Under the pieces are notes generated by a model. The model ran no database searches, was not told the origin of the DNA, and saw only the letters and a list, made by a program, of their open reading frames with translations. Of a stretch of 64,000 bases of DNA, positions 13,397 through 49,980 are shown in pieces. Both the position numbers and the translations under genes were made by a program. The DNA is from Escherichia coli O157:H7 (GTDB taxonomy: Bacteria; Pseudomonadota; Gammaproteobacteria; Enterobacterales; Enterobacteriaceae): the NCBI RefSeq assembly GCF_013167455.1, contig NZ_CP038328.1. One strand, 5' to 3'. Numbering within the stretch: position 1 is the stretch's first letter; every line of letters starts with the position of its first letter.

Positions 13397-16042
13397 ATGG
13401 CAGGTAATTTTGCCGATCTGACAGCCGTGCTGACACTGGATTCTGCCCGTTTTTCTGAAGAGGCAGCGCGGGTAAAAAAAGAGCTGGGTGAAACCAGTGC
13501 GCTTGCTGATTTGATGTCCGGGAAAGTCAGTCAGTCTTTCAGAAAACAGGCTGATGCTGCTGAGCAGAGTCTGAGCCGACAGGCGCTGGCTGCACAAAAA
13601 GCCGGGATATCAGTCGGACAGTATAAGGCTGCCATGCGCACACTGCCCGCACAGTTCACGGATATTGTCACTCAGCTTGCCGGTGGTCAGAATCCCTTCC
13701 TTATCATGCTGCAGCAGGGGGGGCAGATCAGCGATTCATTCGGTGGACCGCTCAGCCTGCTTACCCTGCTGAAGGAGGAACTTCTCGGGATCAGGGATGC
13801 CTCTGAATCATCAGAGGAGTCGCTGTCAGATACGGCAAATGCACTGGCTGAAAATGCCCGGAATGCCGGTGAGCTGGGACGATTTATGTCGGTGGCCCGT
13901 GTGGCGGCCGGTGGCGGGGTTGCCGTACTGGCCGCGCTTGCTGCCGCCGCCTGGCAGGCAGAGCAGGCTGACCGGGCCTTATTGCGTTCACTGATCCTGA
14001 CCGGAGGGGCGGCTGCCACCACAACGGCAGAATTGTGGAAAATGGCCGGGGTGATCAGCGATGAAGCCGGTGGTGGTATCAGACAGGCGGCAGAAAATCT
14101 GGCCCGTCTGGCAGAAAGCGGGAAATATACCGCCGGGCAGCTACGGATCATGGGGGAAACCTCTCAGAGATGGCTGCAGACGGTGGGGGACGATGCCGGG
14201 AAGGTGGAAAAAGCCTTTGAAGGGATTGCAGCAGATCCGGTGAAGGCGCTGGCCTCCCTGAATCAGCAGTATAACTTCCTGAGCGTTTCCCAGTTACGCC
14301 ATATTGATGAGCTTGAGCGCACGAAAGGTAAACAGGTTGCGGTGACGGAGGCGATGTCCCTGTTTGCGGATGTCATGAATGCACGTCTGGAGCAACTTGA
14401 TAAAGCGGCCACGCCGGTGGAAAAAATCTGGGACGATGTTAAAACCTGGACTTCTGACGCATGGGCATGGATAGGTGATCATACACTGGGGGCACTCAGT
14501 CTGATCACTGACGTGGTGGCCGGAACCGTTGAACAAGTGAAGCTGCTGCTTGTGCAGGGGGATCTGGCGCTGGCTGAATTTATTCAGTCAGCCTGGGAAA
14601 CGACAAAGAATGTGCCCGGCGTTGGTGCGTTGTTTGGTGAACTGGCAGAAGAGAACCGCGTATTTATTGAGAAAACAAAACGCGATGAACTGGCGCTGAG
14701 AAAATCCATTGCGGAACGGGATGCGCGTATACGCCAGGGGGAAATGGGGTACATCAACCGCTCGCGTGCAACAGGCGTCAGCAAAGGTCCGGGGCAGCAG
14801 GAAGCCGTCAGCCGTCTGGCTGAAGAGCTGACAGGTAAAAAGCATACATCACCGAAAACGCGCTCTGCCGGGGAGAGGGAAGAGGAGCAGGCAAGAGAGG
14901 CTCTGCTTGCCCTTGAAGCTGAGCTCAGGACGCTGGAAAAACACAGCGGTGCGAATGAGAAAATCAGCCGGCAGCGCCGTGATTTATGGAAGGCGGAAAG
15001 TCAGTATGCGGTCCTGAAAGAGGCTGCCACGAAACGACAGTTATCTGAGCAGGAAAAATCCCTGCTGGCGCATAAAGACGAGACGCTGGAGTACAAACGC
15101 CAGCTGGCTGAGCTGGGCGACAAGGTTGAATACCAGAAACGCCTGAATGAGCTGGCACAGCAGGCGGTGCGGTTTGAAGAGCAGCAGAGCGCGAAGCAGG
15201 CCGCCATCAGCGCAAAAGCCCGCGGTCTCACTGACCGTCAGGCGCAGCGGGAGTCTGAAGCGCAGCGTCTTCGGGACGTGTACGGTGATAATCCGGCTGC
15301 GCTGGCGAAGGCCACATCGGCACTGAAGAACACCAGGTCTGCGGAGGAGCAGCTTCGTGGAAGCTGGATGGCCGGGCTGAAGTCCGGCTGGGGCGAGTGG
15401 GCGGAAAGTGCGACGGACAGTTTTTCGCAGGTTAAAAGTGCTGCCACGCAGACCTTTGACGGTATTGCACAGAATATGGCGGCGATGCTGACCGGTGCAG
15501 AGGCAGACTGGCGGGGATTCACCCGTTCGGTGCTGTCCATGATGACAGAAATCCTGCTTAAACAGGCCATGGTGGGCATTGTCGGGCGTATCGGCAGCGC
15601 CATTGGCGGTGCTTTCGGTGGTGGTGCATCTGCTTCCTCGGGGACGGCCATTCAGGCTGCGGCGGCGAACTTCCATTTCGCGACCGGAGGATTTACGGGG
15701 ACGGGCGGCAAATATGAGCCTGCGGGGATAGTTCACCGCGGGGAGTTTGTTTTCACGAAAGAGGCAACCAGCCGGATAGGTGTGGGGAATCTTTACCGTC
15801 TGATGCGCGGCTATGCGGAAGGTGGTTATGTGGGTGGTGCCGGAAGTCCGGCGCAGATGCGGCGGGCGGAAGGTATTAATTTTAATCAGAACAATCACGT
15901 GGTGATTCAGAACGACGGCACCAACGGACAGGCGGGGCCGCAGCTGATGAAGGCGGTGTATGACATGGCCCGCAAGGGGGCGCAGGATGAGCTCCGGCTG
16001 CAGTTGCGTGATGGCGGTATGTTATCGGGGAGCGGGCGATGA
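13397..16042 (+). CDS. H: Tail tape measure protein H
   Basis: About 880 aa; long stretches near-identical to lambda H (SLSRQALAAQKAGISVGQYKAAMR..., HAGANEKIS.QRRDLWKAESQ..., C-terminal GGFTGTGGKYEPAGIVHRGEFVFTKEATSRIGVGNLYRLMRGYA); ATG 13397 follows AGGAGG at 13383-13388; track starts at GTG 13388. Confidence 0.9.
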   Translation: MAGNFADLTAVLTLDSARFSEEAARVKKELGETSALADLMSGKVSQSFRKQADAAEQSLSRQALAAQKAGISVGQYKAAMRTLPAQFTDIVTQLAGGQNPFLIMLQQGGQISDSFGGPLSLLTLLKEELLGIRDASESSEESLSDTANALAENARNAGELGRFMSVARVAAGGGVAVLAALAAAAWQAEQADRALLRSLILTGGAAATTTAELWKMAGVISDEAGGGIRQAAENLARLAESGKYTAGQLRIMGETSQRWLQTVGDDAGKVEKAFEGIAADPVKALASLNQQYNFLSVSQLRHIDELERTKGKQVAVTEAMSLFADVMNARLEQLDKAATPVEKIWDDVKTWTSDAWAWIGDHTLGALSLITDVVAGTVEQVKLLLVQGDLALAEFIQSAWETTKNVPGVGALFGELAEENRVFIEKTKRDELALRKSIAERDARIRQGEMGYINRSRATGVSKGPGQQEAVSRLAEELTGKKHTSPKTRSAGEREEEQAREALLALEAELRTLEKHSGANEKISRQRRDLWKAESQYAVLKEAATKRQLSEQEKSLLAHKDETLEYKRQLAELGDKVEYQKRLNELAQQAVRFEEQQSAKQAAISAKARGLTDRQAQRESEAQRLRDVYGDNPAALAKATSALKNTRSAEEQLRGSWMAGLKSGWGEWAESATDSFSQVKSAATQTFDGIAQNMAAMLTGAEADWRGFTRSVLSMMTEILLKQAMVGIVGRIGSAIGGAFGGGASASSGTAIQAAAANFHFATGGFTGTGGKYEPAGIVHRGEFVFTKEATSRIGVGNLYRLMRGYAEGGYVGGAGSPAQMRRAEGINFNQNNHVVIQNDGTNGQAGPQLMKAVYDMARKGAQDELRLQLRDGGMLSGSGR

Positions 16043-37228: not shown

Positions 37229-40200
37229 TTAATGGAAAATGACGTCAGGTGCGCTTAACGCCTCACTCAAATTAAACACATCAAGTTCGGCAAAAGTGAC
37301 GGATTTATTGTCACGGTACACTCGAAGAGAACGGAAGCTCATTAACGCTTTGCTATCAACATTGTAGTGGTTAAAACCGGGTGAAAACTTAAGGACCAGC
37401 CGGTACTCACCCAGGTCATAGACAAATGCGTCCTCATAACCTGACTCCCAGCCTTTGTATCGCATTCCCATAAGTTGCCCAACGGTAGCGGATTTACCTT
37501 CCCAGCGAGTCAGGCTGTTACTGGTTGACTCATCAGGTGTGAGCAGCACCGTGCGGCGCGCCAACTGGCGAAAAGGCGGCATAATTTCGTAATCGGCAAA
37601 AAGCTGTGCAAATTCACTGCGCATTTCTGCTGTCATTTCTAACGGGTGGGCAATGCCAATCAGAGCGTCCGCAGGCAGGTCAATTGGCTCATCTTGCGCA
37701 TTGCAGAACCCCCCCTCTGCGGCCACACGAAAGGCGTTGAGTAAACGACGCGGTTCATTTGCCGGATAAACCCCCCATATTAATCGCTGGGTAACCAGAC
37801 GGGTAAAGGGATGATTAACAAACAGAGAATGAAAATCTGCCAGCGACCAGCGTCGGGTGGTACGTAGGGCAGCTTCAAGACGCGGGAGCAGGTTTTTGCT
37901 CACCTGAGTAGCATCTTTTTTTAGCCCTTTTAGTCGGGCCAGTGCCTCGGGCGCTTTCAGTTGATCGTCATCGGCGCGCAACCGGGGAACGCTTTTCTGG
38001 CGAACGTTTTGCTGATCAAAGATAACCGGGTTGAGGTTTTCATCGAAGCGAACGGTAAACTGCCGGGGACCAAAATCAAAACTCAACGCCTGCGGATCAT
38101 CAAGGCCCAGGGTTGGGACTAATCTGTCCGCTAGCTCTTCCTGGCTTAGCCCGCGATTTTCTGCGACTACCTGAAGAAATTCCGCCGCGTTATCACGTAA
38201 GGGGCGGGATTTAGCCCGTTGCGATATATGATGCAGCTGTATCAGCGCCATATCATTATTCATCAGGGTAAGGATGTTCAGGCCGCTGACAGCACGGGCA
38301 GATTTGCCTTGTGGCCAGGCGAGGATCTGTGTTGTTAGATCCCGTGCCGTGCTTTCGTCACCAAAGAGACTTAACGCCAGAAATGCCCAGTTGTCTTTTG
38401 CGGGGGCACCAGCTTGTTGCCACGCAGTGAAGAGATCCCAGGCAAAAGCTGCCAGCGTTTGTGGCTGGCAGAACGTTTTCAGTTGTTCCAGCCCGCTATA
38501 AAAACGTCCCCCCTGGGTAAAGCGCAGCATTTCGCCGATAATTTCCAGAGCGTCATCGGTAACAGGTTGATTATTAGTGATAAGGCGCGGCCTGGACCAC
38601 ATTTGCGGATGCCAGAAATCAGGGGCTTTTGGAATGCGTGCCGGGTAAATTTCCATGGGACCCTGTTTCAGTAAATGCTCCAGGGCAGGCCATACATCTG
38701 TACGCTGCCAACGATTGGCTACAGTTTGTAGCAATTCGCCATGCCCATGTTCGTAAAGTAAACGCAGGGCAAGTAATGCAGCTTCGCTTTTATCGCTAGA
38801 TTTGGTGAAGACAAGAGGGATAAGTGCAGTAGCCGTATGTTCCGGCCATTGTAAAATCCACTGGCGAGCCAGATCACGCTGCGCCGCGAAACGTCGCCAG
38901 ACGCGGGCAACGGGCAGGGCCAGTTCTGTTGCGCCGAAATTTAAAATTAACGGAAATGTTTCTTTTGGACGATGTGAAAAAGCCAACAGCAGACCTGGTA
39001 GCGCATCCAATCCGAGGATACTGAGAAAATAGTCCTCTCCCGCGAACAGATGCTTTTTCTCATTGATACGCAGCCAGAAAGTCAAAGCCATCTCACGCGG
39101 CAACTGTGCCAATAAATACAGGTTCCAGACACTCTTTTCCGGACGATAACGTGAGTAGTTGTCATTTTCCCATATGTTAATTAACGCTTCTATGTGACCG
39201 CTGCGGAGCGCCTGTTCTGCTAATTGTGCTTCCGGGGAGTTCCAGCCATTCAGGATCTCTTCAACCCGCCCCTGGTAGTAATGCCACTGAACAATGAGTG
39301 AATTGCGTGCAGCATCCAGTTTTCCAGGGAGTATATAATTCAAAAACAGCCATACATCATCCCCAAAACCCAGTTCCTGTAATACAACTCGCCCACTTTT
39401 TTGTTCCATGCGTTGCGCAAGAGATTCCGTGCTGAAATAACGGGCAGACTCAGTGGCGGCAAGCCTCTCTCGTTCGCCTGGTTGCCAGTAAACTTGCGGA
39501 GTTAATTCGAGCCGTGCCAAATCAAGACGTGGAGCTGTCATTTTTTTCTTACTACGCCACGGTGGTGAAACGAGGATTTCAGGCAGATTGCTGTTATCGG
39601 TGCCATCAATAACCGGTTTTGGCAGTGCCGATAAATAACTCTTCAGCACTGCCCTGGCTTGAGTACTTAACCACGACATCACTTCTGCTGCCAGTTGTGG
39701 CTGCGATGCCATCAGCGTTTGTAACAGCGTACGCCAGTATTCTTCTCGAGCTTTTTGCTGTGCAGGCAGCTTTTTGTCTTCGATGATTGGATAACCAGGG
39801 CGGGCTGGTGGTTCTTTTAACGCCAGCAGTTCTGCCAGTGCGGCGAGCGTCGCATGGGGGAAGTTTTTACTGTATTTAGCCACACGTTGCAGGCTGGGTT
39901 TGTTTTTATCAGCAACTAACAGCAAGGTGCGGATGACTTGCGGATGGTTAATTTGTACCAGCAGACTGCCGCAATCTTCTTTATGAGCATACATTGCCAG
40001 GCGCGGAACGGCTGCCAGTCCTTGTTCGCGCAAAAGGGAGGCGCAGGCCGCGTAGCCGAAGCGGTTTTCTTGTGACATGTAGCTGGCTTCGCGATCGCTA
40101 AATACGTCCAGGCCCCAGTATCGTTCGAGTTTTTTTACCGCCGTATTATCAGTAGCAACGACCTTTAACCACTCCTTTGAATGGAGACTTGACCGGGAGC

Positions 40201-40858
40201 TTTCAAGACTGGCGAGTTCATTGGCTATTTCAGGTTTTTCCGGGAGGATCAGCGCAATAAAAGGACGGCGAATTTTGGGTATTCCTGGCAGTGCGGCAAT
40301 GAGTTTATCGGCACAACGCTGCCAGCAACTTTCCTCTGCCAGCGACAGATGCTTACGCAAACGGAGATCGAAATCGTTATAGGTCGCGGAGCCATAACCG
40401 TAGCCATAGTCCTCGTCCTGATACTGCAAAGTGACGACCAGTGAGTCACTCTCATAACGCCGCGCAATGCACTGACGCGATATCACTACATCCGTCGCAT
40501 ATTCCAGCCCCTCTTGTTGCACGATTTCATCAAGTAACTGCTGGCTGTCATTTTGCGCGATACAGATCAGAGCCGCCATGGTAAGGGCTGGGATTGACGG
40601 TTTATGCTCGCCAGTCAAATTGATTGCCTGCTGGATGGCGGACTGCCACTCCAGTGAGCATTTATCATAATTCCAGGTGATATTTTCCTTCTGGCCTGCT
40701 TGTTGTAGTAATTCATCTCCCAATGTCTGGATGAGACTTCCAGTGATAACGGACACTGGTTCGCCCGGCCAGCGACGATGACTGAGCGGCGTTTTGCCTT
40801 TTTTATATTTCAGTTCCAGTTGGGCGTTATCCGCCAGCCACGGTAATTCCTTGTCCAT
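37229..40858 (-). CDS. yehI: YehI: large DUF4132-family protein (1209 aa), intact, lacking the N-terminal WGR module present in the neighbouring paralogs
   Basis: Single long ORF; paralogous to the two upstream split ORF pairs across most of its length. Confidence 0.85.
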   Translation of the reverse strand: MDKELPWLADNAQLELKYKKGKTPLSHRRWPGEPVSVITGSLIQTLGDELLQQAGQKENITWNYDKCSLEWQSAIQQAINLTGEHKPSIPALTMAALICIAQNDSQQLLDEIVQQEGLEYATDVVISRQCIARRYESDSLVVTLQYQDEDYGYGYGSATYNDFDLRLRKHLSLAEESCWQRCADKLIAALPGIPKIRRPFIALILPEKPEIANELASLESSRSSLHSKEWLKVVATDNTAVKKLERYWGLDVFSDREASYMSQENRFGYAACASLLREQGLAAVPRLAMYAHKEDCGSLLVQINHPQVIRTLLLVADKNKPSLQRVAKYSKNFPHATLAALAELLALKEPPARPGYPIIEDKKLPAQQKAREEYWRTLLQTLMASQPQLAAEVMSWLSTQARAVLKSYLSALPKPVIDGTDNSNLPEILVSPPWRSKKKMTAPRLDLARLELTPQVYWQPGERERLAATESARYFSTESLAQRMEQKSGRVVLQELGFGDDVWLFLNYILPGKLDAARNSLIVQWHYYQGRVEEILNGWNSPEAQLAEQALRSGHIEALINIWENDNYSRYRPEKSVWNLYLLAQLPREMALTFWLRINEKKHLFAGEDYFLSILGLDALPGLLLAFSHRPKETFPLILNFGATELALPVARVWRRFAAQRDLARQWILQWPEHTATALIPLVFTKSSDKSEAALLALRLLYEHGHGELLQTVANRWQRTDVWPALEHLLKQGPMEIYPARIPKAPDFWHPQMWSRPRLITNNQPVTDDALEIIGEMLRFTQGGRFYSGLEQLKTFCQPQTLAAFAWDLFTAWQQAGAPAKDNWAFLALSLFGDESTARDLTTQILAWPQGKSARAVSGLNILTLMNNDMALIQLHHISQRAKSRPLRDNAAEFLQVVAENRGLSQEELADRLVPTLGLDDPQALSFDFGPRQFTVRFDENLNPVIFDQQNVRQKSVPRLRADDDQLKAPEALARLKGLKKDATQVSKNLLPRLEAALRTTRRWSLADFHSLFVNHPFTRLVTQRLIWGVYPANEPRRLLNAFRVAAEGGFCNAQDEPIDLPADALIGIAHPLEMTAEMRSEFAQLFADYEIMPPFRQLARRTVLLTPDESTSNSLTRWEGKSATVGQLMGMRYKGWESGYEDAFVYDLGEYRLVLKFSPGFNHYNVDSKALMSFRSLRVYRDNKSVTFAELDVFNLSEALSAPDVIFH

Positions 40859-40867
40859 GCTCTTTCC

Positions 40868-43853
40868 TTATTCAAACAGGGCTTCAATATCGTTAATTAG
40901 CTCGCTGGCGGTGATGGCATCGAGTACGGAGAACTGCGCTTCCTGTGTTGAATTACTCCCCCAGCCATAGCTTTCTGCGTTGCCTTCCCATAGCCACAGC
41001 TTGCTTAAGATTTGCTCGGCACTCAGTTCGGCTGGCGACATGCCTACCGCAAAACCTTCATCGATTTCCATGATTAACGACCAGCGGCCCAGAGGTTTGA
41101 TCATCCAGCCGATCCAGCCTCCATCCTGCGGGGTGCCCTTTATCCAGCCTTTATTCGCCAGCCCCATGACCCGACCGCTCGGGCATTTTCTGCCTGCCCA
41201 GCGGGTCAGTTCGCTGGCGTTGCGCTCGGCTTCTGTCAGGGCGTAACTGTTACGGTCAAGCTGACGGAACGGTGGTAGCAGTTCATAGTCGGCAAAAAGC
41301 TGACCAAAGGCGGTAGCATCCGTCGGTGATATTTCCAGAACGTGAGGAATGCCAACAGAGATATCGCCTTCCGGCAGGGTGAAAAGATCATCGTCAGCGG
41401 TGCTGTAGCTGTTATCTTCCGCCACGCGGAAGCACGTCAGTAGCTGGTTTTCGGTGCTATAAACGCCCCAAATCAGACGGCGGGTTAAGTGGCGTACCAG
41501 TGGATGTTCAACCAGGAAGAGCTGAAAGTTTTCTGGCGACCAGCGGCGACGCAGGCACATGGCGGATTCCAACCTTGCTACCTGCTGGGCGGCGACGGTA
41601 CGCGCATCTTTTTTCAGCAGTTTGTAGCGGTTAACAGCATCGTTCGCCTGTGATTCATCATCGCTTTTGTTTGGTTTGGGCAGGTCTTTCAGACGGCTGC
41701 CAGAAACATCACGCACAAACGGTTTTAAGGTTTCATCAAAGCTGACGGTGAACTGGCGTGAGCCGAAATCCAGCAGCAACGAACCGTTATCATCCAGACC
41801 GAGATCCGGTGCTAACCGATCTTCAAGCTCTGCCACCGTGAGTTCGCGGCTTTCGGCAATGCCGGCAATTTTTTCTTTTGCCCGCTCCTGTAATGCTTTG
41901 AATTTCAGTTTCTGGGCAATACCGTTAAGCTGCATCAGGGCGATATCACTACCGATAGCGGCGAGAATATCCAACCCAACGGTGGCGCGTTTATGCTGGG
42001 ATTCACCAGGCCAGGCGCGTATTAATGGCGTCAGTTTGCGGGCGGTGTCATCGTTACCAAGAACGCCTAACGCAGTGAACGCCCAACTCTCTTTCGACGG
42101 TGCGCCCGCAGTCAGCCAGGCGGTAAACAGATCCCAGGCAAATTCAGCCAGTGAGTCGGCGGTACAGGCATCTTTCACCTGCAATAATCCCGGATACAGG
42201 GCCTCTTCCTGAGGGAAGCGGAGCATTTCACCGAGGTGCTGGAGTGCGCTATCTGGCAGTACCTTGCTGCTATTTTTGAGTTTCGGGCGAGTCCATAATG
42301 GAGGTTGATAAAACAACGGTAAAGGGGGGATTTTCGCCGGGTATTTACCCACAGGACTGTTGTCGTTATTTTTATTTTGAGTTTCCCAGGGCGGCGAGAC
42401 TAGTACCATTGGTAGAATTTCTGAGTTTGCAAAATCTTCATTGCGACTATTCAGCAATTGCTGACATTGTTGCAATAAATTTGCCGCTTGCGACGATAAT
42501 CCGATGACTAATTTTTCGACAAATAAAGGATTTGCATTAAGTAATGAAACCAGCAATGTATGTTTGCGTTTATCATCTTTTTTTACCAATGCTTCGGCTA
42601 ATGCCACTATCGTTGCAGAAGGAAAATTTTCGGCACTTTTTATTCGTAATGGCCAACGGATGATTAATACATTTCAGTACGTCACCGCAATTATCTTCTT
42701 CAGCATAGGGAGTCAGGCGAGCCAGTGCCGCTATACCTTGCTCCCGTAATACCGTAGCTGACCAACTGGCACCATAGGTGTTAAATACATCAATGTATTG
42801 ATAGTTCTCCAGTATTTCGAGCGTGAATGGATCTGTCGCTACCAGTTTCAACATTTCAAGTTGTGGAACATCTGCGACCTGGTGTAAACGATGTACGATC
42901 TCATGGGCCACTTCGGGTATTTCTGGCATTAAAATGGCAATTAACGGTTGGCGATAGAGTGATATATCTGGTAACGCAACGAGTAATTTTGCAATGCAAT
43001 TTTGCCATACTTCTTCTTCTGCTAGTGATAAATGTTTACGCAGACGTAAACTAAATTTGTCGTTATTCCTTCTATAACTGTCCTTGCTGCTATCTGCATA
43101 ATTAATAAAGAAAGTCAAATGTTCATCTTTATAGTCAAAATCGAAATCAATTTGCCACCAGAAGATGACAGTTTCAGTTGCGTATTCGATACCGAAGGTG
43201 CTTACAATTTCATCCAGCAACTCGGATGAGGTTTCATCATTCCAGCCCTGACAAAAACATATTTCCAGAAAAGTAAGTACCGCCATAGTACGCGCGGGTA
43301 TCTCAGTCTTTTGGGCCTTAATTAAGCTGATTGCCTGGCTAATCGCATCAGCCCATTCATCAGAGCATGAGCTGTAATCGAAAGTCAGATTTTTATAATA
43401 ATGATAAGTACGATTTGCCAATCGGGAAATTAAATTTTGTTTCTCGGGTTTGGTTGGTTTTTTTACTGGCTCTCCCGGCCAAAGGCGGTGGCTGAGGGCA
43501 TGGCGGGCAATATTCGGGGGAAGAATAATGGGATCGTTGTCTGCCAGCCAGGGTAAACCATTAGTTGCTGCCTGGCGATTTATTGAGGCTTTTTCCTCTG
43601 TGACCAGGACTTTCTTTGCTGAGGCATCATGTGAGTGAGCGTTAGCGTCTACTTGCTCCACATACCCCTTCTTCACCTTCTCCGCAATCAGCTTCAGTGC
43701 TGCTTTTTCCGCCGCCGCAGTATCTGCAAAGCTTTTTACCTGACTTTGCCCGTTGGTACCGACTTTACCCCAGTTAATATGCAGCTCGTTTCCCTGCTGC
43801 TCCACCGCCCAGAATTTATGTGATTTTTCGTCCTGATAAATATAGGTTTTCAT
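40868..43853 (-). pseudogene. WGR + DUF4132 paralog (molR/yehH-like), disrupted: frameshift at about 42573-42607 and apparent internal deletion of about 330 codons relative to yehI
   Basis: Track ORFs 42573..43853 (426 aa, WGR N-terminus MKTYIYQDEKSHKFWAVEQQG...) and 40868..42607 (579 aa) overlap by 35 nt in different frames; the 579-aa part jumps from the LVSPPW region to the YPAKIP region of the yehI alignment. Confidence 0.6.
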
Positions 43854-43865
43854 TGTTAAATCCTT

Positions 43866-46800
43866 TTAATCAAACAGTGATTCAATGTCGTTAATCAGCT
43901 CGCTGGCGGTGATGTCGTCGAGCATGGAGAAAGTGAGTGAGGATTGTTTACCGTAGCGATCATCTGGCGAGGTGATTTTTACGCTTTCAACCGGGTGCTG
44001 GTCGCCATACCCCGTTTCACCATAAATTAATGAAAAAGGTTCCGTTTCAAGTTCGAGATCGCCATGAGGGGTTGTTTTGCGCATCGCATAAACGCTGCCG
44101 CTTTCTTCCAGACGTTGCCAGCCTCTGCGTTCCAGCCCGACAATGCGTCCGGCCTGGCAAAGCCGTCCTTGCCAGCGTGTCAGTTCGTGAGTATTACGTT
44201 CATTATCAGCAAGGTGATAGCTACCTCGCTCGAGCTGTTGGAAAGGGGGAAGCAGTTCGTAATCAGCGTAAATTTGCCTGAATGCAGCGGCGGATTCAGG
44301 GGATATTTCCAGCACATGCGGAATACCGATGTTTCCTGCTGGCAGCGTGAATAACTCATCCTGCGCATCGCTGTAAGTGCTGTCTTCTGCCACGCGAAAA
44401 CAGGTGATAAGGGCGTTTTCATCGTTATAAACCCCCCATAACAGCCGTCGGGTTAAGTGACGTACCAGCGGATGCTCCACCAGAAACAGGCGGAACTGCT
44501 CTGCCGTCCAGCGTCTGCGCTGGCACATAGCCTGTTCCAGACGATCAATCTGCTGGCTGGCTATGGCGCGTACATCTTTTTTCAACTGTTTGAAGAGATT
44601 AACCGCGTCAGTTGCCTGAGTTTTTTCATCGCTCTGGTTTGGCTTAGGTAAATCTTTCAGGACTTTGCCGTTTGCATCGCACACTACAGGTTTTAAGGTT
44701 TCGTCAAAACCAACGGTGAATTTGCGGGGGCCGAAATCCAGTATCAGCGAGCCACTGCTATCAAGCCCTAAATCTGGAGCCAGGCGGTCTTCCAGTTCAG
44801 CCATAGTCAGCCCACGGTTTTCAGCAACTATGTTGATTTTCTCGCGGGCATGTTCCTGTAATGCTTTGAATTTAATTTTTCGCGCGATGCCATTAAGCAG
44901 CATTAGCGCAACATCGCTGCCAATATCAGCTAATACATCCAGCCCGGACACCGCCCGTTTATGCTGGGATTCCCCAGGCCAGGCGCGGATAAGCGGGGTT
45001 AATTTACGCGCGGTGTCGTCATTGCCTAAAATCCCAAGCGAAGTAAATGCCCAGTTTTCTTTTGCGGGTGCGCCAGCTTCTGTCCAGGCGGGATACAGAT
45101 CCCAGCCAAATTCAGCCAGTGATTCGCGGGTGAAGATTTCTCTAATGATATCCAGCCCAGCGTAGGCGGTAATGTCGCGAGGAAAGCTCAGCATAGTGCC
45201 GAGGTGGCGCATAGCGTCATCTGACAGAGGCAGGTTGTTACTTTTAAGCCGTGGTCTGCGCCACAAGGTGAACTGATAAAAGCCGGGCAGTGGGGCGATT
45301 TTAGCGGGATATTCTTCCAGTGGGTCGCTATCGAACAATGTTGCCAGCGCAGCTAAAACATCAGGTTGATTATATCCTTGCGCGATTTCCTCAATCGTTT
45401 CTCGCTGGTTTAAATTCACCAGCAGACGAAGCGCCTGGCGGGCACAATCACGATCTTTTCCTTTTTTGCCCAGGGCCACAGGAAGCAGCCCGGCGGCGGC
45501 ATGGCGTGGATAATCAGTTAGCCAGTTTCGCGCATCTTCATAAGACATTTTTTTCTGTAATTGTTGCGCCATCGGTAAGGCCAGTTCACTGACACCGAGG
45601 AAAAAGGGGAAGAAGCACAGACGTCGTGGATCACGTTGCAGGCAGGCCATAAATGCAGGTATGGCGGCGCTACCAAAAATTGCCAGAATATTTCCCTCAC
45701 CAGAGTAGTTATCTTCTTTGACTATCTGGTTAAGAAAAGAAATGGCCTGTTGACCAGGCAGGTAACAGAGGGCAATGAGATTCCAGCTTTTGTATGCATT
45801 GTTATGATAATGCACAAATTCAGCATTGAGTGCTGGAAAATCGAAGCGTAGCAGGGCATCAACGGCGCTTTGTGGCGCCGGAATTTTTTCGTATATTTTT
45901 TCTCCGCTCTCCCGCCATTTTTCAAAACCAAGATGCCACAGTATTTGTTGCTCCGGTGTAAGCGGTATTAAGTGTTTCTCCCAGCTTGCTTTTTTGATCG
46001 GCGGCAGGTCGGTAAACAATGTTTGTTTTGTCGCCTGCTGTTGGGCTATTTGCTGGAAGTGGGTGACAAGGTAAGTACGGGTCAGTTTTTTGGTAATCTC
46101 TGGAGTGACATCAGAAACAGAAGGAACTGGAAGCACTGGAAGATCAAACACAGGCGTATTTTTCTTTTTCTCTTTGGTCATCCAGGGCGGCGAAACAAGC
46201 AGCTCCGGCAACATATCCACAGTGGCATATTCACATTCTTCAGCGACTGACTGCGGACGACATTCAGATAAGATGCCTGCCGCTTTAGCATTAACCCAGG
46301 GAATGACGTCGCATACTAACTCTGGCGTGGCGGTAATCAGTTTGACAAGCGCTTTACGCCACTCTTTATCTTCATGTATTGCCAGCAAAGTAGCATAAGC
46401 CGCAATAGCCGCAGCGGGATGCTTTTGACTGGCCTTGCTTAAGTATTCCAGGTGCTTTTTCTTACCAATTACACCGAGGATCAGAATTTGAATCGCATCC
46501 GGGTGATTCGTTTTCCATAGCCATTTGACAAGATTTTCAGTCTCGCTGATGCGTTCGAAGAGATAAGTGGGATTGTCAGAATGGTCTTCCGTAAACTCAA
46601 GAAGTATCCGGCTTACACCGCGCACCCCATTATTTGCCAACAACATTGCCAGATAAGCGCGAAAATTACGAAAATCACGATACAACGGTGGGAAGTCGTA
46701 TTTTTCCACTGTACTCAGAGCAGTATCATCGGTTATCACCAGTCTTAACCAGGTCATCGCCGGGACGTTTTGGTCTGCATAGCGTAGATCTATAGCATGG

Positions 46801-47675
46801 GCGATATCCGGGCGTTCAGGGAGCAGTAACGCCGCAAAAGGTTGCCGTGCGGGGGATAGCGTCGGAATGGCGGTGAGTACTTTATCTACACAGCGTTGCC
46901 ACTCATCTTCTGAAGCGAGTGAAAGATGATGACATAGACGTTGATGCTAACTAGGTAGCGATTCTGCTTCGTGATTAGGTGGAATGATGGTGGTTACTGC
47001 GCCTTTTACTGGTTTATATTTGAGTTGAAGGGCAAAAAGGACGATTTCAACGGCGCTTTCCAGACCACAGCGAATGACTAAGTCATCGACCAGTTCATCT
47101 GCAGAGTAAGAGTTCCAAAAACTCCAGAGCAATGCTGCATCAGATTGCGCACTCCCTGTCTGTTGATTATCCAGAATTCGCCTTTGTAACTCAGCAAAAG
47201 CCTGCTGCCAGTTTTCAGGATAAGAGCGGTAATTGTTGTCGGGATCATATGCCCTGGTGTTATCTGCAATACGCTTCCATATCTCACCGTCTTTGCGCAG
47301 ATAATTGATCTCTCTGGGGCGAGAGCGATGAGGAAAAGCAAATCGGTTAATATCGTCAGTTACCGGAATAACTGCATCATCAGCCAGCCACGGGCGTTGG
47401 TTTTTACTCTCAGGGGAAGTTTCAACTTCAGGAGTGGCTTTGGTGATGGGGGGGATATGCACGTTTGCTGAAGCATTTTCCACATAGCCTTTTTTCGTTT
47501 TCTCCGCGATAAGCTTCAGTTTCGCTTTTTCCGCTGCTGCAACATCCGCAAAACTTTTTATCTGGCTTTGCCCGTTAGTGCCGACTTTGCCCCAGTTGAT
47601 ATGCAGCTCGTTTCCCTGCTGCTCAACCGCCCAGAATTTATGTGATTTTTCGTCCTGATAGATAAAGTGTCTCAT
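43866..47675 (-). pseudogene. molR: molR-like WGR + DUF4132 paralog, split into a 242-aa WGR-containing ORF and a 963-aa body ORF by a frame disruption around 46760-46950
   Basis: Track ORFs 46947..47675 and 43866..46757; the 963-aa frame continues homologous upstream of its first Met until an in-frame stop; K-12 molR is annotated as an interrupted pseudogene at this position after metG. Confidence 0.6.
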
Positions 47676-47815
47676 TCTGCATCCCTGTAATTTTATCCAG
47701 TTGAATGCAGATGCTACCAGTATTTATACGGGTTAGAGAGAGACAAAATCGTAAGAAAACAACTTTAGGAATTTATAAAGAAAAGGCGCTGTCGATGCAG
47801 CGCCTTGAAGGGGGA

Positions 47816-49849
47816 TTATTTCACCTGATGACCCGGTTTAGCACCGGCATCCGGGCTTAGCAGGAAAATATCTTTCCCGCCAGGACCGGCAGCCATCACC
47901 ATGCCTTCAGAGATACCGAAGCGCATTTTACGTGGTGCCAGGTTAGCCACCATAATGGTGTGACGACCAATCAGTGCCTGCGGATCTGGGTAAGCAGAAC
48001 GAATGCCGGAGAAGACATTGCGTTTTTCACCGCCGAGATCCAGCGTCAGGCGTAGCAGTTTGTCAGAACCTTCAACAAACTCTGCGTTTTCAATCAGCGC
48101 CACGCGCAGGTCAACTTTGGCGAAGTCGTCAAAGGTGATGGTTTCCTGAATCGGATCATCTGCCAGTGGGCCAGTAACTGGCGCGGCAGCTGCTTTCACT
48201 TCTTCTTTAGACGCTTCCACCAGTGCTTCAACCTGCTTCATATCGATGCGGTTATACAGCGCCTTGAACGGATTCACTTTGTGGCCCAGCAGCGGTTGCT
48301 GGATACCATCCCAGGTCAGTTCTGTATTGAGAAATGCTTCTGCGCGCTCGGTCAGTTTCGGCAGTACCGGCTTCAGGTAAGTCATCAGCACGCGGAACAG
48401 GTTGATGCCCATTGAGCAAATCGCCTGCAGGTCAGCATCGCGGCCTTCCTGTTTTGCCACCACCCACGGAGCCTGTTCATCGACATAGCGGTTAGCCAGA
48501 TCAGCCAGCGCCATGATTTCGCGCACTGCTTTACCAAATTCGCGGCTTTCCCACGCTTCACCAATCACTTCAGCGGCATCAGTGAAGGTTTTGTACAACT
48601 GCGGGTCAGCCAGTTCGCTTGCCAGCACGCCGTCAAAACGCTTGTTGATAAAGCCCGCATTACGAGAGGCCAGGTTAACCACTTTGTTAACGATATCGGC
48701 ATTCACGCGCTGAACGAAATCTTCCAGGTTGAGATCGATATCATCAATGCGCGAAGAGAGTTTCGCAGTGTAGTAGTAACGCAGGCTGTCGGCGTCAAAA
48801 TGATTCAGCCAGGTGCTGGCTTTAATAAAGGTACCGCGAGACTTAGACATCTTCGCGCCGTTCACCGTCACATAGCCATGAACAAACAGGTTGGTCGGCT
48901 TGCGGAAGTTGCTGCCTTCCAGCATTGCTGGCCAGAACAGACTGTGGAAGTAAACAATATCTTTACCGATGAAGTGGTACAGCTCGGCGGTGGAGTCTTT
49001 CTTCCAGTATTCATCGAAGCTTACGCTGTCGCCGCGCTTGTCGCACAGATTCTTGAAAGAACCCATATAGCCAATCGGCGCATCCAGCCAGACGTAGAAA
49101 TATTTACCCGGCGCGTTCGGAATTTCAAAACCGAAGTACGGCGCGTCGCGGGAGATATCCCACTGTTGCAGACCGGATTCAAACCACTCCTGCATTTTAT
49201 TTGCCACCTGCTCCTGCAACGCACCGCTGCGGGTCCATGCCTGCAACATTTCGCTGAAAGAGGGCAGATCAAAGAAGAAGTGTTCAGAATCACGCATTAC
49301 CGGGGTAGCGCCAGAAACCACCGATTTCGGCTCGATCAGTTCAGTCGGGCTGTAGGTCGCGCCGCAGACTTCGCAGTTATCGCCGTATTGATCCGGGGAT
49401 TTACATTTCGGGCAGGTGCCTTTCACAAAACGGTCCGGCAGGAACATGCCTTTTTCCGGATCGTACAGCTGAGAGATGGTGCGGTTTTTAATAAAACCGT
49501 TTTCTTTCAAGCGAGTATAGATAAGCTCAGACAACTGGCGGTTCTCTTCGCTGTGCGTCGAGTGATAGTTGTCATAGCTGATGTTAAAGCCTGCGAAATC
49601 AGTCTGATGCTCCTGACTCATTTCGCCAATCATCTGCTCCGGGGTGATACCAAGCTGCTGAGCTTTCAGCATGATCGGTGTACCGTGGGCATCGTCGGCG
49701 CAGATGAAGTTGACCTCGTGGCCGCGCATTCGCTGGTAACGGACCCAGACATCAGCCTGGATGTGCTCCAGCATATGGCCGAGGTGGATTGAGCCGTTAG
49801 CGTACGGCAGTGCGCACGTCACCAGAATTTTCTTCGCGACTTGAGTCAT
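47816..49849 (-). CDS. metG: Methionine--tRNA ligase
   Basis: 677 aa from [39 protein letters not shown] and KMSKS motifs seen. Confidence 0.95.
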
Positions 49850-49980
49850 AGTAGGCATTACTTCTTAATAGTGAAAAGGGGTTAGATAGTACCAAATGGG
49901 AAAATGTTAAGTAAGTACTTCTCTATATTCTTCAGGTAAACTATCAGCTGATGGTTTATCTATACAAAAAAGGAGTCGGG

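What the first reader, a model, noticed from the sequence alone, without database searches (positions are those of the whole stretch)
40868..47675. Tandem DUF4132 paralogs in different states of decay, with near-identical 5' segments
The paralog at 43866-47675 is split between its WGR module and body; the paralog at 40868-43853 has a 35-nt frame overlap plus what looks like an internal deletion of about 330 codons; yehI is intact but lacks WGR. The first roughly 200 bp of the two WGR-containing copies (about 47480-47675 and 43660-43853) are almost identical, so unequal recombination or gene conversion is plausible. K-12 is recalled as having only one interrupted molR copy upstream of yehI; if so, this window carries an extra paralog unit of about 3 kb.
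Basis: partly seen in the sequence, partly recalled or inferred. Interest (0 to 1): 0.5.

Follow-up and report, generated by a model that had tools for sequence, protein, structure and literature searches.

The report
Decayed WGR-DUF4132 gene array, O157
E. coli O157:H7 keeps an old three-gene array of large, highly variable proteins of unknown function next to metG, has knocked out two of them and a partner gene, and K-12 lost one whole gene of the array by recombination, so this is ordinary gene decay in an uncharacterised locus.

Summary
The window is E. coli O157:H7. The observation mostly holds. There are three tandem DUF4132 genes on the minus strand.

- **P1** (43866-47675) has one amber codon, TGG to TAG at codon 243.
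- **P2** (40868-43853) has a 47-nt deletion that shifts the frame.
- **yehI** is intact and has no WGR domain.
- All lesions are real. Each is present in about 300 O157 genomes, as is an amber codon in the downstream gene yehM.

Three details are wrong.

- The "330-codon deletion" is a natural short allele. It is an intact 1010-aa protein in strain ES5, Escherichia sp. E1V33 and E. marmotae.
- The 5' segments are 85% identical, not near-identical.
- The paralogs are ancient, at 33-50% amino-acid identity.

The three-gene array is ancestral: Klebsiella oxytoca and E. whittamii carry it, and E. albertii and E. fergusonii have P1. About 70% of E. coli, K-12 included, lack one 3.8-kb unit. Their single molR gene is a P1::P2 chimera with its crossover inside the 198-nt WGR segment. 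Unequal recombination is therefore supported, but as a loss in K-12, not a gain in O157.

The array sits upstream of the conserved yehLMPQ genes in many phyla. Its function is unknown. Interest is modest.

The parts
47683..47702 (-). LexA-type box AACTGGATAAAATTACAGGG (CTG-N10-CAG), 8 nt upstream of the P1 start codon, within the metG-P1 intergenic promoter region (47676-47815)
   Evidence: Read directly from the sequence. It is identical upstream of K-12 molR, and the CTG-N10-CAG core is unchanged in K. oxytoca. molR is listed in the SOS regulon (PMC6590174), and its promoter is activated by BglJ-RcsB (PMC3950696). LexA binding was not tested here.
43866..47675 (-). P1, the metG-proximal WGR + DUF4132 paralog. 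It is a pseudogene: a 1269-codon frame with one amber codon at codon 243.
   Evidence: The closest intact allele is in strain ES5: 1267 aa, 96% nucleotide identity, Pfam WGR at residues 6-69 and DUF4132 at 1001-1184. The P1 body is present in 1629 of 5426 complete E. coli genomes.
46947..46949 (-). P1 lesion: TGG (Trp243) changed to TAG
   Evidence: A 45-mer spanning the lesion is found in 298 genomes, all in the O157:H7 group.
47479..47676 (-). 5' WGR-coding segment of P1, one copy of the 198-nt direct repeat
   Evidence: 85% identity to 43657-43854.
43657..43854 (-). 5' WGR-coding segment of P2, the other copy of the 198-nt direct repeat. It is the recombination substrate.
40868..43853 (-). 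P2, the middle WGR + DUF4132 paralog and the ortholog of K-12 molR (yehF/yehH). It is the short allele class, frameshifted in O157. The resulting ORFs are 42573-43853 (426 aa) and 40868-42607 (579 aa).
   Evidence: The intact 1010-aa version in ES5 has WGR at residues 7-69 and DUF4132 at 734-919.
42644..42645 (-). P2 lesion: junction of a 47-nt deletion relative to the intact short allele. This deletion causes the 35-nt ORF overlap.
   Evidence: The junction 46-mer is found in 299 genomes.
37229..40858 (-). yehI, the third paralog. It is intact (1209 aa), has no WGR domain, and has DUF4132 at residues 953-1137.
36850..37167 (-). yehK, a small gene (105 aa) found only in the Escherichia loci
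34521..35609 (-). yehL, a MoxR-type AAA+ ATPase, intact
   Evidence: Annotation. Homologs lie next to DUF4132 genes in 46 of 74 loci from other species.
32231..34510 (-). yehM (DUF5682). It is a pseudogene in O157: CAG changed to TAG at codon 510, window 32981-32983.
   Evidence: A 45-mer spanning the lesion is found in 301 genomes.
29102..32238 (-). yehP (VWA domain, 31102-32238) and yehQ (SWIM zinc finger, 29102-31105), both intact
   Evidence: They are conserved downstream of DUF4132 genes across phyla.

Best explanation
The region is the variable front end of a conserved locus. That locus is an array of large WGR-helical repeat-DUF4132 proteins followed by yehL (MoxR-type AAA+ ATPase), yehM (DUF5682), yehP (VWA) and yehQ (SWIM).

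O157:H7 keeps the ancestral enterobacterial array of three anciently diverged paralogs, P1, P2 and YehI. In the O157:H7 lineage the system has been inactivated piece by piece. P1 acquired Trp243 to amber. P2, which belongs to a naturally short allele class, lost 47 nt and is frameshifted. yehM acquired Gln510 to amber. All three lesions are fixed in the clade.

The 198-nt, 85%-identical 5' segments encode the WGR domain. They have been kept alike by occasional exchange between paralogs. The same segment has served as the crossover site for unequal homologous recombination that removed one 3.8-kb unit. That produced the two-gene arrangement seen in K-12 and about 70% of E. coli. In those strains the single molR gene is a P1::P2 chimera behind the P1 promoter with its LexA-type box.

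Shown: the lesions, the clade-wide fixation, the ancient paralogy, the chimeras and the conserved linkage to yehLMPQ. Inferred: that the lesions mean loss of function of the whole system. Also inferred: that the paralogs are alternative subunits of one YehLMPQ machine, with the PARP-like WGR domain sensing nucleic acid, the variable helical-repeat middle setting specificity, and the conserved DUF4132 end docking to the machine.
For: **Identity and lesions.** The window is 100% identical to O157 strain FDAARGOS_293, which carries the pseudogene annotations. They are found in 298, 299 and 301 genomes.

**Short allele.** It is intact in ES5, in E1V33 (90.6% identity over its full length) and in E. 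marmotae.

**Ancient paralogy.** Amino-acid identity is 33-50%. K. oxytoca, K. spallanzanii, E. whittamii and E1V33 each have P1-P2-YehI. P1 is intact in E. albertii and E. fergusonii.

**Copy number.** The P1 body is in 1629 of 5426 genomes. The junction of the P1 end with the P2-type start is in 1630 of 5426.

**Chimeras.** All 7 two-copy strains sampled switch from P1-type to P2-type bases within nt 15-168. There are at least two breakpoints, and the P1-derived parts resemble different P1 alleles.

**Exchange in the 5' segment.** See dS and the genus-level pattern.

**System context.** 46 of 74 loci have a YehL homolog next to the DUF4132 gene, 36 have the full L-M-P-Q set, and 19 loci have 2-4 full-length tandem copies. 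Massilia aquatica has 4 full-length copies plus further partial ones.

**Conservation profile.** In every array examined the WGR and DUF4132 ends are conserved and the middle is variable.

**Promoter.** The LexA-type box is conserved as far as Klebsiella.
Against: - No experiment shows that these proteins act together with YehLMPQ. No function is known for DUF4132, and I found no functional study.
- Only seven two-copy strains were inspected base by base for the crossover.
- Later allelic recombination, rather than independent deletions, could explain why the P1-derived parts differ among two-copy strains.
- yehI, yehL, yehP and yehQ remain intact in O157, so 'whole-system decay' is an inference.
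- Part of the similarity in the WGR segment must reflect purifying selection on the domain (dN/dS about 0.1).
Confidence: 0.8

Rival explanations
1. O157 gained an extra paralog unit by a recent tandem duplication or unequal crossover, and K-12 shows the original two-gene state.
For: K-12 and most E. coli have one gene fewer. A direct repeat spaced 3822 nt apart flanks the unit.
Against: P1 and P2 share only 46-50% amino-acid identity and have saturated synonymous divergence outside the WGR segment. P1 orthologs occur in Klebsiella, E. whittamii, E. albertii and E. fergusonii. Genes in two-copy strains are P1::P2 chimeras, which is the product expected from a deletion.
Confidence: 0.03
2. The interruptions are not simple decay. 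Truncation just after the WGR domain and the N-terminal subdomain is selected, or the stop is read through. O157 would then still make a stand-alone WGR fragment (242 aa) and possibly a restarted C-terminal protein with some function.
For: Four independent nonsense mutations in the promoter-proximal gene fall in codons 237-306 of about 1265: ETEC4079 TAA237, O157 TAG243, K-12 and N61 TGA275, and O26 TGA306. That stretch holds only 5-7% of the single-step routes to a stop codon. Many N-terminal WGR fragments of 235-416 aa exist in public proteomes, some with hundreds of member sequences. The model has a domain boundary near residues 250-270. RefSeq annotates K-12 YehF as a protein.
Against: The sample is only four events, and the window was chosen after seeing them. 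The protein search was biased toward short proteins. Other lineages carry lesions elsewhere: a frameshift at nt 2846 in K-12, and truncated genes in N61 and Ec-FL1-1X. O157 also has a broken P2 and a broken yehM, which fits plain loss of the system.
Confidence: 0.12
3. The similarity of the 5' segments reflects only strong purifying selection on the WGR domain, with no exchange between paralogs.
For: The segment encodes the WGR domain and has dN/dS of 0.08-0.17. The same high-low-high conservation profile is seen in Massilia arrays.
Against: Synonymous divergence is also 3-4 times lower in this segment than in the equally constrained DUF4132 domain. Paralogs within a genus are more alike than orthologs between genera in this segment only. 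Direct P1::P2 recombinants exist.
Confidence: 0.05

Closest known systems
E. coli K-12 molR (yehF + yehH pseudogene, formerly molR_1-3) and yehI
   Same: Same locus between metG and yehK-yehL. Same protein family (WGR + DUF4132). Same promoter with a LexA-type box. Also interrupted, by TGA at codon 275 plus a 1-nt insertion.
   Different: K-12 has two genes, not three. Its molR is a P1::P2 chimera of the long P2 allele class. O157 has separate P1 and P2 genes, different lesions, and the short P2 allele.
MoxR AAA+ ATPase / VWA-protein pairs (for example RavA-ViaA), YehL subfamily
   Same: The downstream genes yehL (annotated as a MoxR-family AAA+ ATPase) and yehP (VWA) form the usual MoxR-VWA pair. 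They are linked to DUF4132 genes across phyla.
   Different: The client or purpose of the YehL system is unknown. The extra DUF5682 and SWIM proteins, and the upstream array of WGR-DUF4132 paralogs, are not part of the characterised MoxR systems. No physical interaction has been tested.
WGR domain of PARP1-3, which contacts DNA breaks
   Different: There is no PARP catalytic domain. The WGR domain is fused to helical repeats and DUF4132. DNA binding has not been tested.
Copy-number change and concerted evolution in tandem bacterial gene families through unequal homologous recombination
   Same: A conserved segment shared by neighbouring paralogs acts as the crossover site. The product is a chimeric gene and the loss of one unit.
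   Different: Here the paralogs are otherwise too diverged to recombine, so exchange is confined to a segment of about 200 nt.

Membership tests
DUF4132 (Pfam PF13569) proteins | Significant match to the DUF4132 profile in the C-terminal third of the protein | tested here: met
   ES5 P2 residues 734-919, E 8.6e-52. O157 YehI residues 953-1137, E 1.2e-46. ES5 P1 residues 1001-1184, E 5.4e-52.
WGR domain (Pfam PF05406) proteins | N-terminal WGR profile match and WGR fold | tested here: met
   Met for P1 and P2, with fold matches to 2ra8 and to PARP3 and PARP1 WGR domains. Not met for YehI, which has no WGR match and starts about 100 alignment columns later.
Pseudogene (lineage-fixed loss-of-function allele) | A disabling lesion relative to an intact close allele, reproducible across independent assemblies | tested here: met
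   P1 TAG243 against TGG in ES5. P2 47-nt deletion against ES5. yehM TAG510 against CAG in K-12. Found in 298, 299 and 301 genomes. Absence of the full-length proteins was not tested.
SOS (LexA) regulon | A LexA box (CTG-N10-CAG palindrome-like site) at the promoter and DNA-damage induction | tested here: inconclusive
   The box is present and conserved, and molR is listed as an SOS gene (PMC6590174). LexA binding and induction in O157 cannot be tested with these tools.
MoxR-VWA system (YehL subfamily) | An adjacent MoxR-type AAA+ ATPase gene and a VWA-domain gene in one operon | tested here: met
   yehL and yehP are annotated. Homologs lie next to DUF4132 genes in 46 of 74 loci, and 36 loci have the L-M-P-Q set. 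NCBIfam gives only weak sub-threshold hits, to GvpN and a cobaltochelatase family. That the DUF4132 proteins belong to this system functionally rests on gene linkage alone.
Known anti-phage defence systems (PADLOC-DB v2) | A match of any component to a defence-system protein model | tested here: not met
   No hits at E of 0.01 or better for P1, P2, YehI, YehK, YehL, YehM, YehP or YehQ.
Recent tandem duplicates | High identity along the whole length of the neighbouring copies | tested here: not met
   Amino-acid identity is 33-50% overall. Nucleotide similarity is detectable only at nt 1-197, about nt 2550-3449 and the last 66 nt.

The most novel reading that the evidence does not exclude
The WGR-helical repeat-DUF4132 array together with YehLMPQ is an uncharacterised, DNA-damage-inducible conflict or surveillance system. 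On this reading, several hypervariable tandem paralogs act as interchangeable nucleic-acid sensors feeding one MoxR-VWA-SWIM machine. Their diversity would be maintained by long-term diversifying selection, seen as allele classes shared across Escherichia species. The system would be repeatedly lost or remodelled, including a favoured truncation after the WGR module.
Probability: 0.2. Interest if true: 0.75.

Novelty: new member of a known kind. Interest (0 to 1): 0.38.

Why it matters
For O157:H7 itself the result is ordinary. Three clade-fixed disabling mutations sit in a dispensable locus, and RefSeq already flags them as pseudogenes.

The wider picture is more useful.

- **K-12 molR.** The long-puzzling 'molR' gene of K-12 is the recombinant remnant of a three-gene array.
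- **Allelic diversity.** The array genes are far more diverse among strains (87-96% nucleotide identity for P1) than the flanking metG (96-99%). Long and short allele classes are shared across Escherichia species.
- **Conserved linkage.** The same architecture recurs from enterobacteria to myxobacteria and actinomycetes: one to several variable WGR-DUF4132 genes in front of a conserved MoxR/DUF5682/VWA/SWIM gene set. In enterobacteria it sits behind a conserved LexA-type box.

Together these make a tractable candidate for assigning a function to DUF4132 and DUF5682. Natural knock-outs (O157, K-12) and intact versions (ES5, ST131) are available within one species.

Tried and rejected
- **Assembly error.** Rejected. 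Each lesion is present in about 300 independent complete genomes.
- **A 330-codon deletion as decay.** Rejected. The short form is an intact allele class. Natural proteins of about 1010 aa also occur in Myxococcales.
- **Recent duplication in O157.** Rejected.
- **Known defence system.** PADLOC gave no hits.
- **Phage origin.** The PHROG hits are an artefact. The matching profiles have exactly the lengths of the O157 pseudogene fragments: 242, 426 and 947 aa, and 509 and 243 aa for yehM. They were therefore evidently built from an O157 'prophage' call that included this chromosomal region.
- **NCBIfam.** It gave only a WGR-level partial match to a Leptospira family, far below its cut-off, and weak hits for YehL and YehP.
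- **Solved structures.** Only the WGR domain has relatives. Nothing matches the DUF4132 domain. AFDB50 returned only family members.
- **Literature.** Searches for DUF4132, DUF5682, YehI, YehL+MoxR and 'molybdate metabolism regulator' found no functional study. They found promoter regulation, the neighbouring zor-orz locus and a transposon insertion site in ST131.
- **Lesion-position distribution.** An attempt to read it from fragment lengths in the protein database failed. One search returned only short proteins and the other listed only full-length ones.
- **Stop-prone codon composition.** Rejected as the cause of the clustered nonsense mutations.
Full report
**Source and layout**

The window is E. 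coli O157:H7. The stretch 36500-48500 is 100% identical to strain FDAARGOS_293. The genes below are all on the minus strand; positions for metG to yehK are, and those for yehL to yehQ are derived from the record coordinates.

| Gene | Window position | State |
|---|---|---|
| metG | 47816-49858 | intact |
| P1 | 43866-47675 | pseudogene, 'internal stop' |
| P2 | 40868-43853 | pseudogene, 'frameshifted' |
| yehI | 37229-40858 | intact |
| yehK | 36850-37167 | intact |
| yehL | 34521-35609 | intact |
| yehM | 32231-34510 | pseudogene, 'internal stop' |
| yehP | 31102-32238 | intact |
| yehQ | 29102-31105 | intact |

**The lesions**

- P1 is one open frame of 1269 codons, broken only by TAG at codon 243 (window 46947-46949). 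The closest intact allele is in strain ES5, at 96% nucleotide identity, and has TGG there.
- P2 differs from an intact 1010-aa gene in ES5 by 82 substitutions and one 47-nt deletion, between window 42645 and 42644.
- yehM carries CAG to TAG at codon 510.
- Short exact queries spanning each lesion find 298, 299 and 301 of 5426 complete genomes; every listed hit but one (strain PAR, yehM query) is 100% identical and all rows with a serotype label are O157. The lesions are therefore real and fixed in the clade.

The 'internal deletion of about 330 codons' is not decay.

- The short P2 form is about 254 codons shorter than the long alleles. It is an intact ORF in ES5, in Escherichia sp. E1V33 and in E. 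marmotae.
- Its N-terminal half is only 30-60% identical in protein to the long P2 alleles of other E. coli strains. Its C-terminal half is 93-100% identical.
- The O157 short allele is 90.6% identical in nucleotides, over its full length, to the E1V33 short allele. So long and short allele classes are shared across species.

The 5' segments are a 198-nt direct repeat at 85% identity. They are anomalously similar, but not near-identical.

**The paralogs are ancient**

- Amino-acid identity is 46-50% for P1/P2, 40-43% for P2/YehI and 33% for P1/YehI.
- Only the WGR domain (first 66 codons or so, 80-90% identity) and the DUF4132 region (about 70-80%) are conserved between P1 and P2.
- A scan of one genome per species found the array P1-P2-YehI in K. 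oxytoca, K. spallanzanii, E. whittamii and E1V33; where the held DNA reaches upstream (K. oxytoca, E1V33) metG lies directly before P1.
- Intact P1 orthologs exist in E. albertii and E. fergusonii.
- The three-gene array is therefore ancestral.

**K-12 lost a unit**

- The P1 body is present in 1629 of 5426 genomes.
- The junction 'P1 stop, spacer, P2-type start' is present in 1630 of 5426.
- In the remaining 70% or so, only the first 197-201 nt of P1 match.
- Base-by-base inspection used nine sites that distinguish P1 from P2 in three-copy strains. All seven two-copy strains examined begin with P1-type bases and end with P2-type bases. These strains were K-12, HS, O26 RM8426, Nissle, Ec-042-T5, S1-SRL-01-C and ETEC4079.
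- The switch lies between nt 141 and 168 in six strains, and between nt 15 and 123 in ETEC4079. The P1-derived parts resemble different P1 alleles.
- This is the product expected from unequal homologous recombination between the two WGR-coding segments, deleting one 3822-nt unit. It probably happened more than once.
- The upstream promoter region is the same in O157 (before P1) and in K-12 (before molR).

**Exchange within the 5' segment**

- Synonymous divergence between P1 and P2 is 0.55-0.82 in the WGR segment. It is above 1.8, or saturated, across the main body of the gene, including the strongly constrained DUF4132 domain; the C-terminal tail is at 1.2-2.1.
- In this segment alone, Escherichia P1 against P2 is 83-88% and K. 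oxytoca P1 against P2 is 80%. Orthologs between Escherichia and Klebsiella are 73-78%.
- This is the signature of concerted evolution. It is not recent, because within Escherichia the P1 and P2 segments still form separate groups.

**Wider context**

- DUF4132 genes occur in Gamma- and Betaproteobacteria, Myxococcales, Actinomycetes and Planctomycetota.
- In 46 of 74 loci a YehL homolog lies next to them. In 36 loci the full YehL-M-P-Q set follows. Nineteen loci have 2-4 full-length tandem copies, and Massilia aquatica has 4 full-length copies plus further partial ones.
- Every array examined shows the same profile: conserved WGR and DUF4132 ends and a variable middle.
- Within E. coli these genes are unusually diverse. 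P1 is 87-96% identical between strains and yehI 92-95%, against 96-99% for metG and yehL.
- An AlphaFold2 model of the short allele (pLDDT 88.9, pTM 0.72) shows four parts: a WGR domain, a disordered linker at residues 71-98, a long helical-repeat region, and an alpha/beta C-terminal domain.
- Structure searches match only PARP-type WGR domains and HEAT/ARM repeat proteins. Nothing resembles the DUF4132 domain.
- A LexA-type box, AACTGGATAAAATTACAGGG, sits 8 nt before the P1 start codon. Its CTG-N10-CAG core is unchanged in K. oxytoca.
- molR is listed as an SOS gene and is activated by BglJ-RcsB.
- No component matches a known defence system.
- I found no functional study of the family.

**Interpretation**

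Shown:
- O157:H7 retains the ancestral array.
- It carries three clade-fixed disabling mutations in P1, P2 and yehM.
- K-12-type strains carry a recombinant single gene.

Inferred:
- The array genes and yehLMPQ form one system, and that system is decaying in O157.
- The paralogs are alternative sensor or adaptor subunits. In this model the WGR domain senses nucleic acid, the helical middle sets specificity, and the DUF4132 end docks onto a MoxR-VWA-SWIM machine.
- The diversity, the cross-species allele classes, the tandem expansion and the frequent loss are what one sees in conflict systems. That reading remains speculative, and I put it at about 0.2.

**An unexplained point**

Four independent nonsense mutations in the promoter-proximal gene fall within codons 237-306: ETEC4079 at 237, O157 at 243, K-12 and N61 at 275, and O26 at 306. 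This stretch is not enriched in stop-prone codons. It lies near a domain boundary in the model. The sample is small and the window was chosen after the fact. I could not obtain an unbiased distribution of lesion positions.

**Verdict**

The recombination idea is right, but the direction of change is reversed. One of the 'decay' features is an allele class, not a lesion. For O157 this is ordinary gene decay that is already annotated. The locus as a whole is an interesting uncharacterised system.

Noticed in passing
window 32981-32983 (yehM codon 510); L013 about 14725-14727: The yehM amber mutation (CAG to TAG, context LIA*ENQ) that is fixed in O157:H7 is also present at the same codon in Escherichia sp. 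MOD1-EC7003, a different Escherichia lineage. It is probably also present in E. coli strain PAR. This could be a shared old allele spread by recombination, or a recurrent mutation. I could not tell which.
   Followed up: partly
window 35690-36691, between yehK and yehL: The tandem zor-orz type I toxin-antitoxin locus. Two OrzO-P antitoxin RNAs lie at 35721-35796 and 36332-36405 (Rfam, 99.9 and 88.8 bits), inside a duplication of about 610 nt. This explains why the intergenic region is 1.2 kb here against 0.3 kb in K-12. It is already described in PMC2887945.
   Followed up: yes
codons 237-306 of the first WGR-DUF4132 gene: window 46947-46949 for O157; L089, L090 and L004 for the other strains: Four independent nonsense mutations in four lineages cluster in a 70-codon stretch just after the WGR domain and the N-terminal subdomain: TAA237, TAG243, TGA275 and TGA306. 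The stretch holds only 5-7% of the single-step routes to a stop codon.
   Followed up: partly
PHROG families 28101, 36602, 20839, 30700, 33984, 36295, 31592 and 29006: These viral protein families have profile lengths equal to the O157 pseudogene fragments of P1, P2 and yehM, and to O157 YehK, YehP and YehQ. They were evidently built from a prophage prediction that swallowed this chromosomal region. They are a database artefact, not evidence of phage origin.
   Followed up: yes
L002 (strain RIVM_C036569), L091 (Ec-FL1-1X), L092 (N61): Other lineages carry different combinations of lesions in the same system. RIVM_C036569 has all three array genes intact, but yehL is frameshifted and yehM has an internal stop. 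Ec-FL1-1X has a truncated P2. N61 shares the K-12 TGA275 and also has a truncation.
   Followed up: partly
L007 (strain R32_14_1F) yehI, alignment columns 601-720: yehI also has mosaic alleles. One block of about 120 residues is only 30% identical to the O157 allele, while the rest of the protein is 80-100% identical.
   Followed up: no
L018, L026-L028 and L031 (Massilia species): Arrays of five or six tandem DUF4132 ORFs, counting partial ones (up to four full-length per locus), stand in front of a single yehLMPQ-like gene set.
   Followed up: partly
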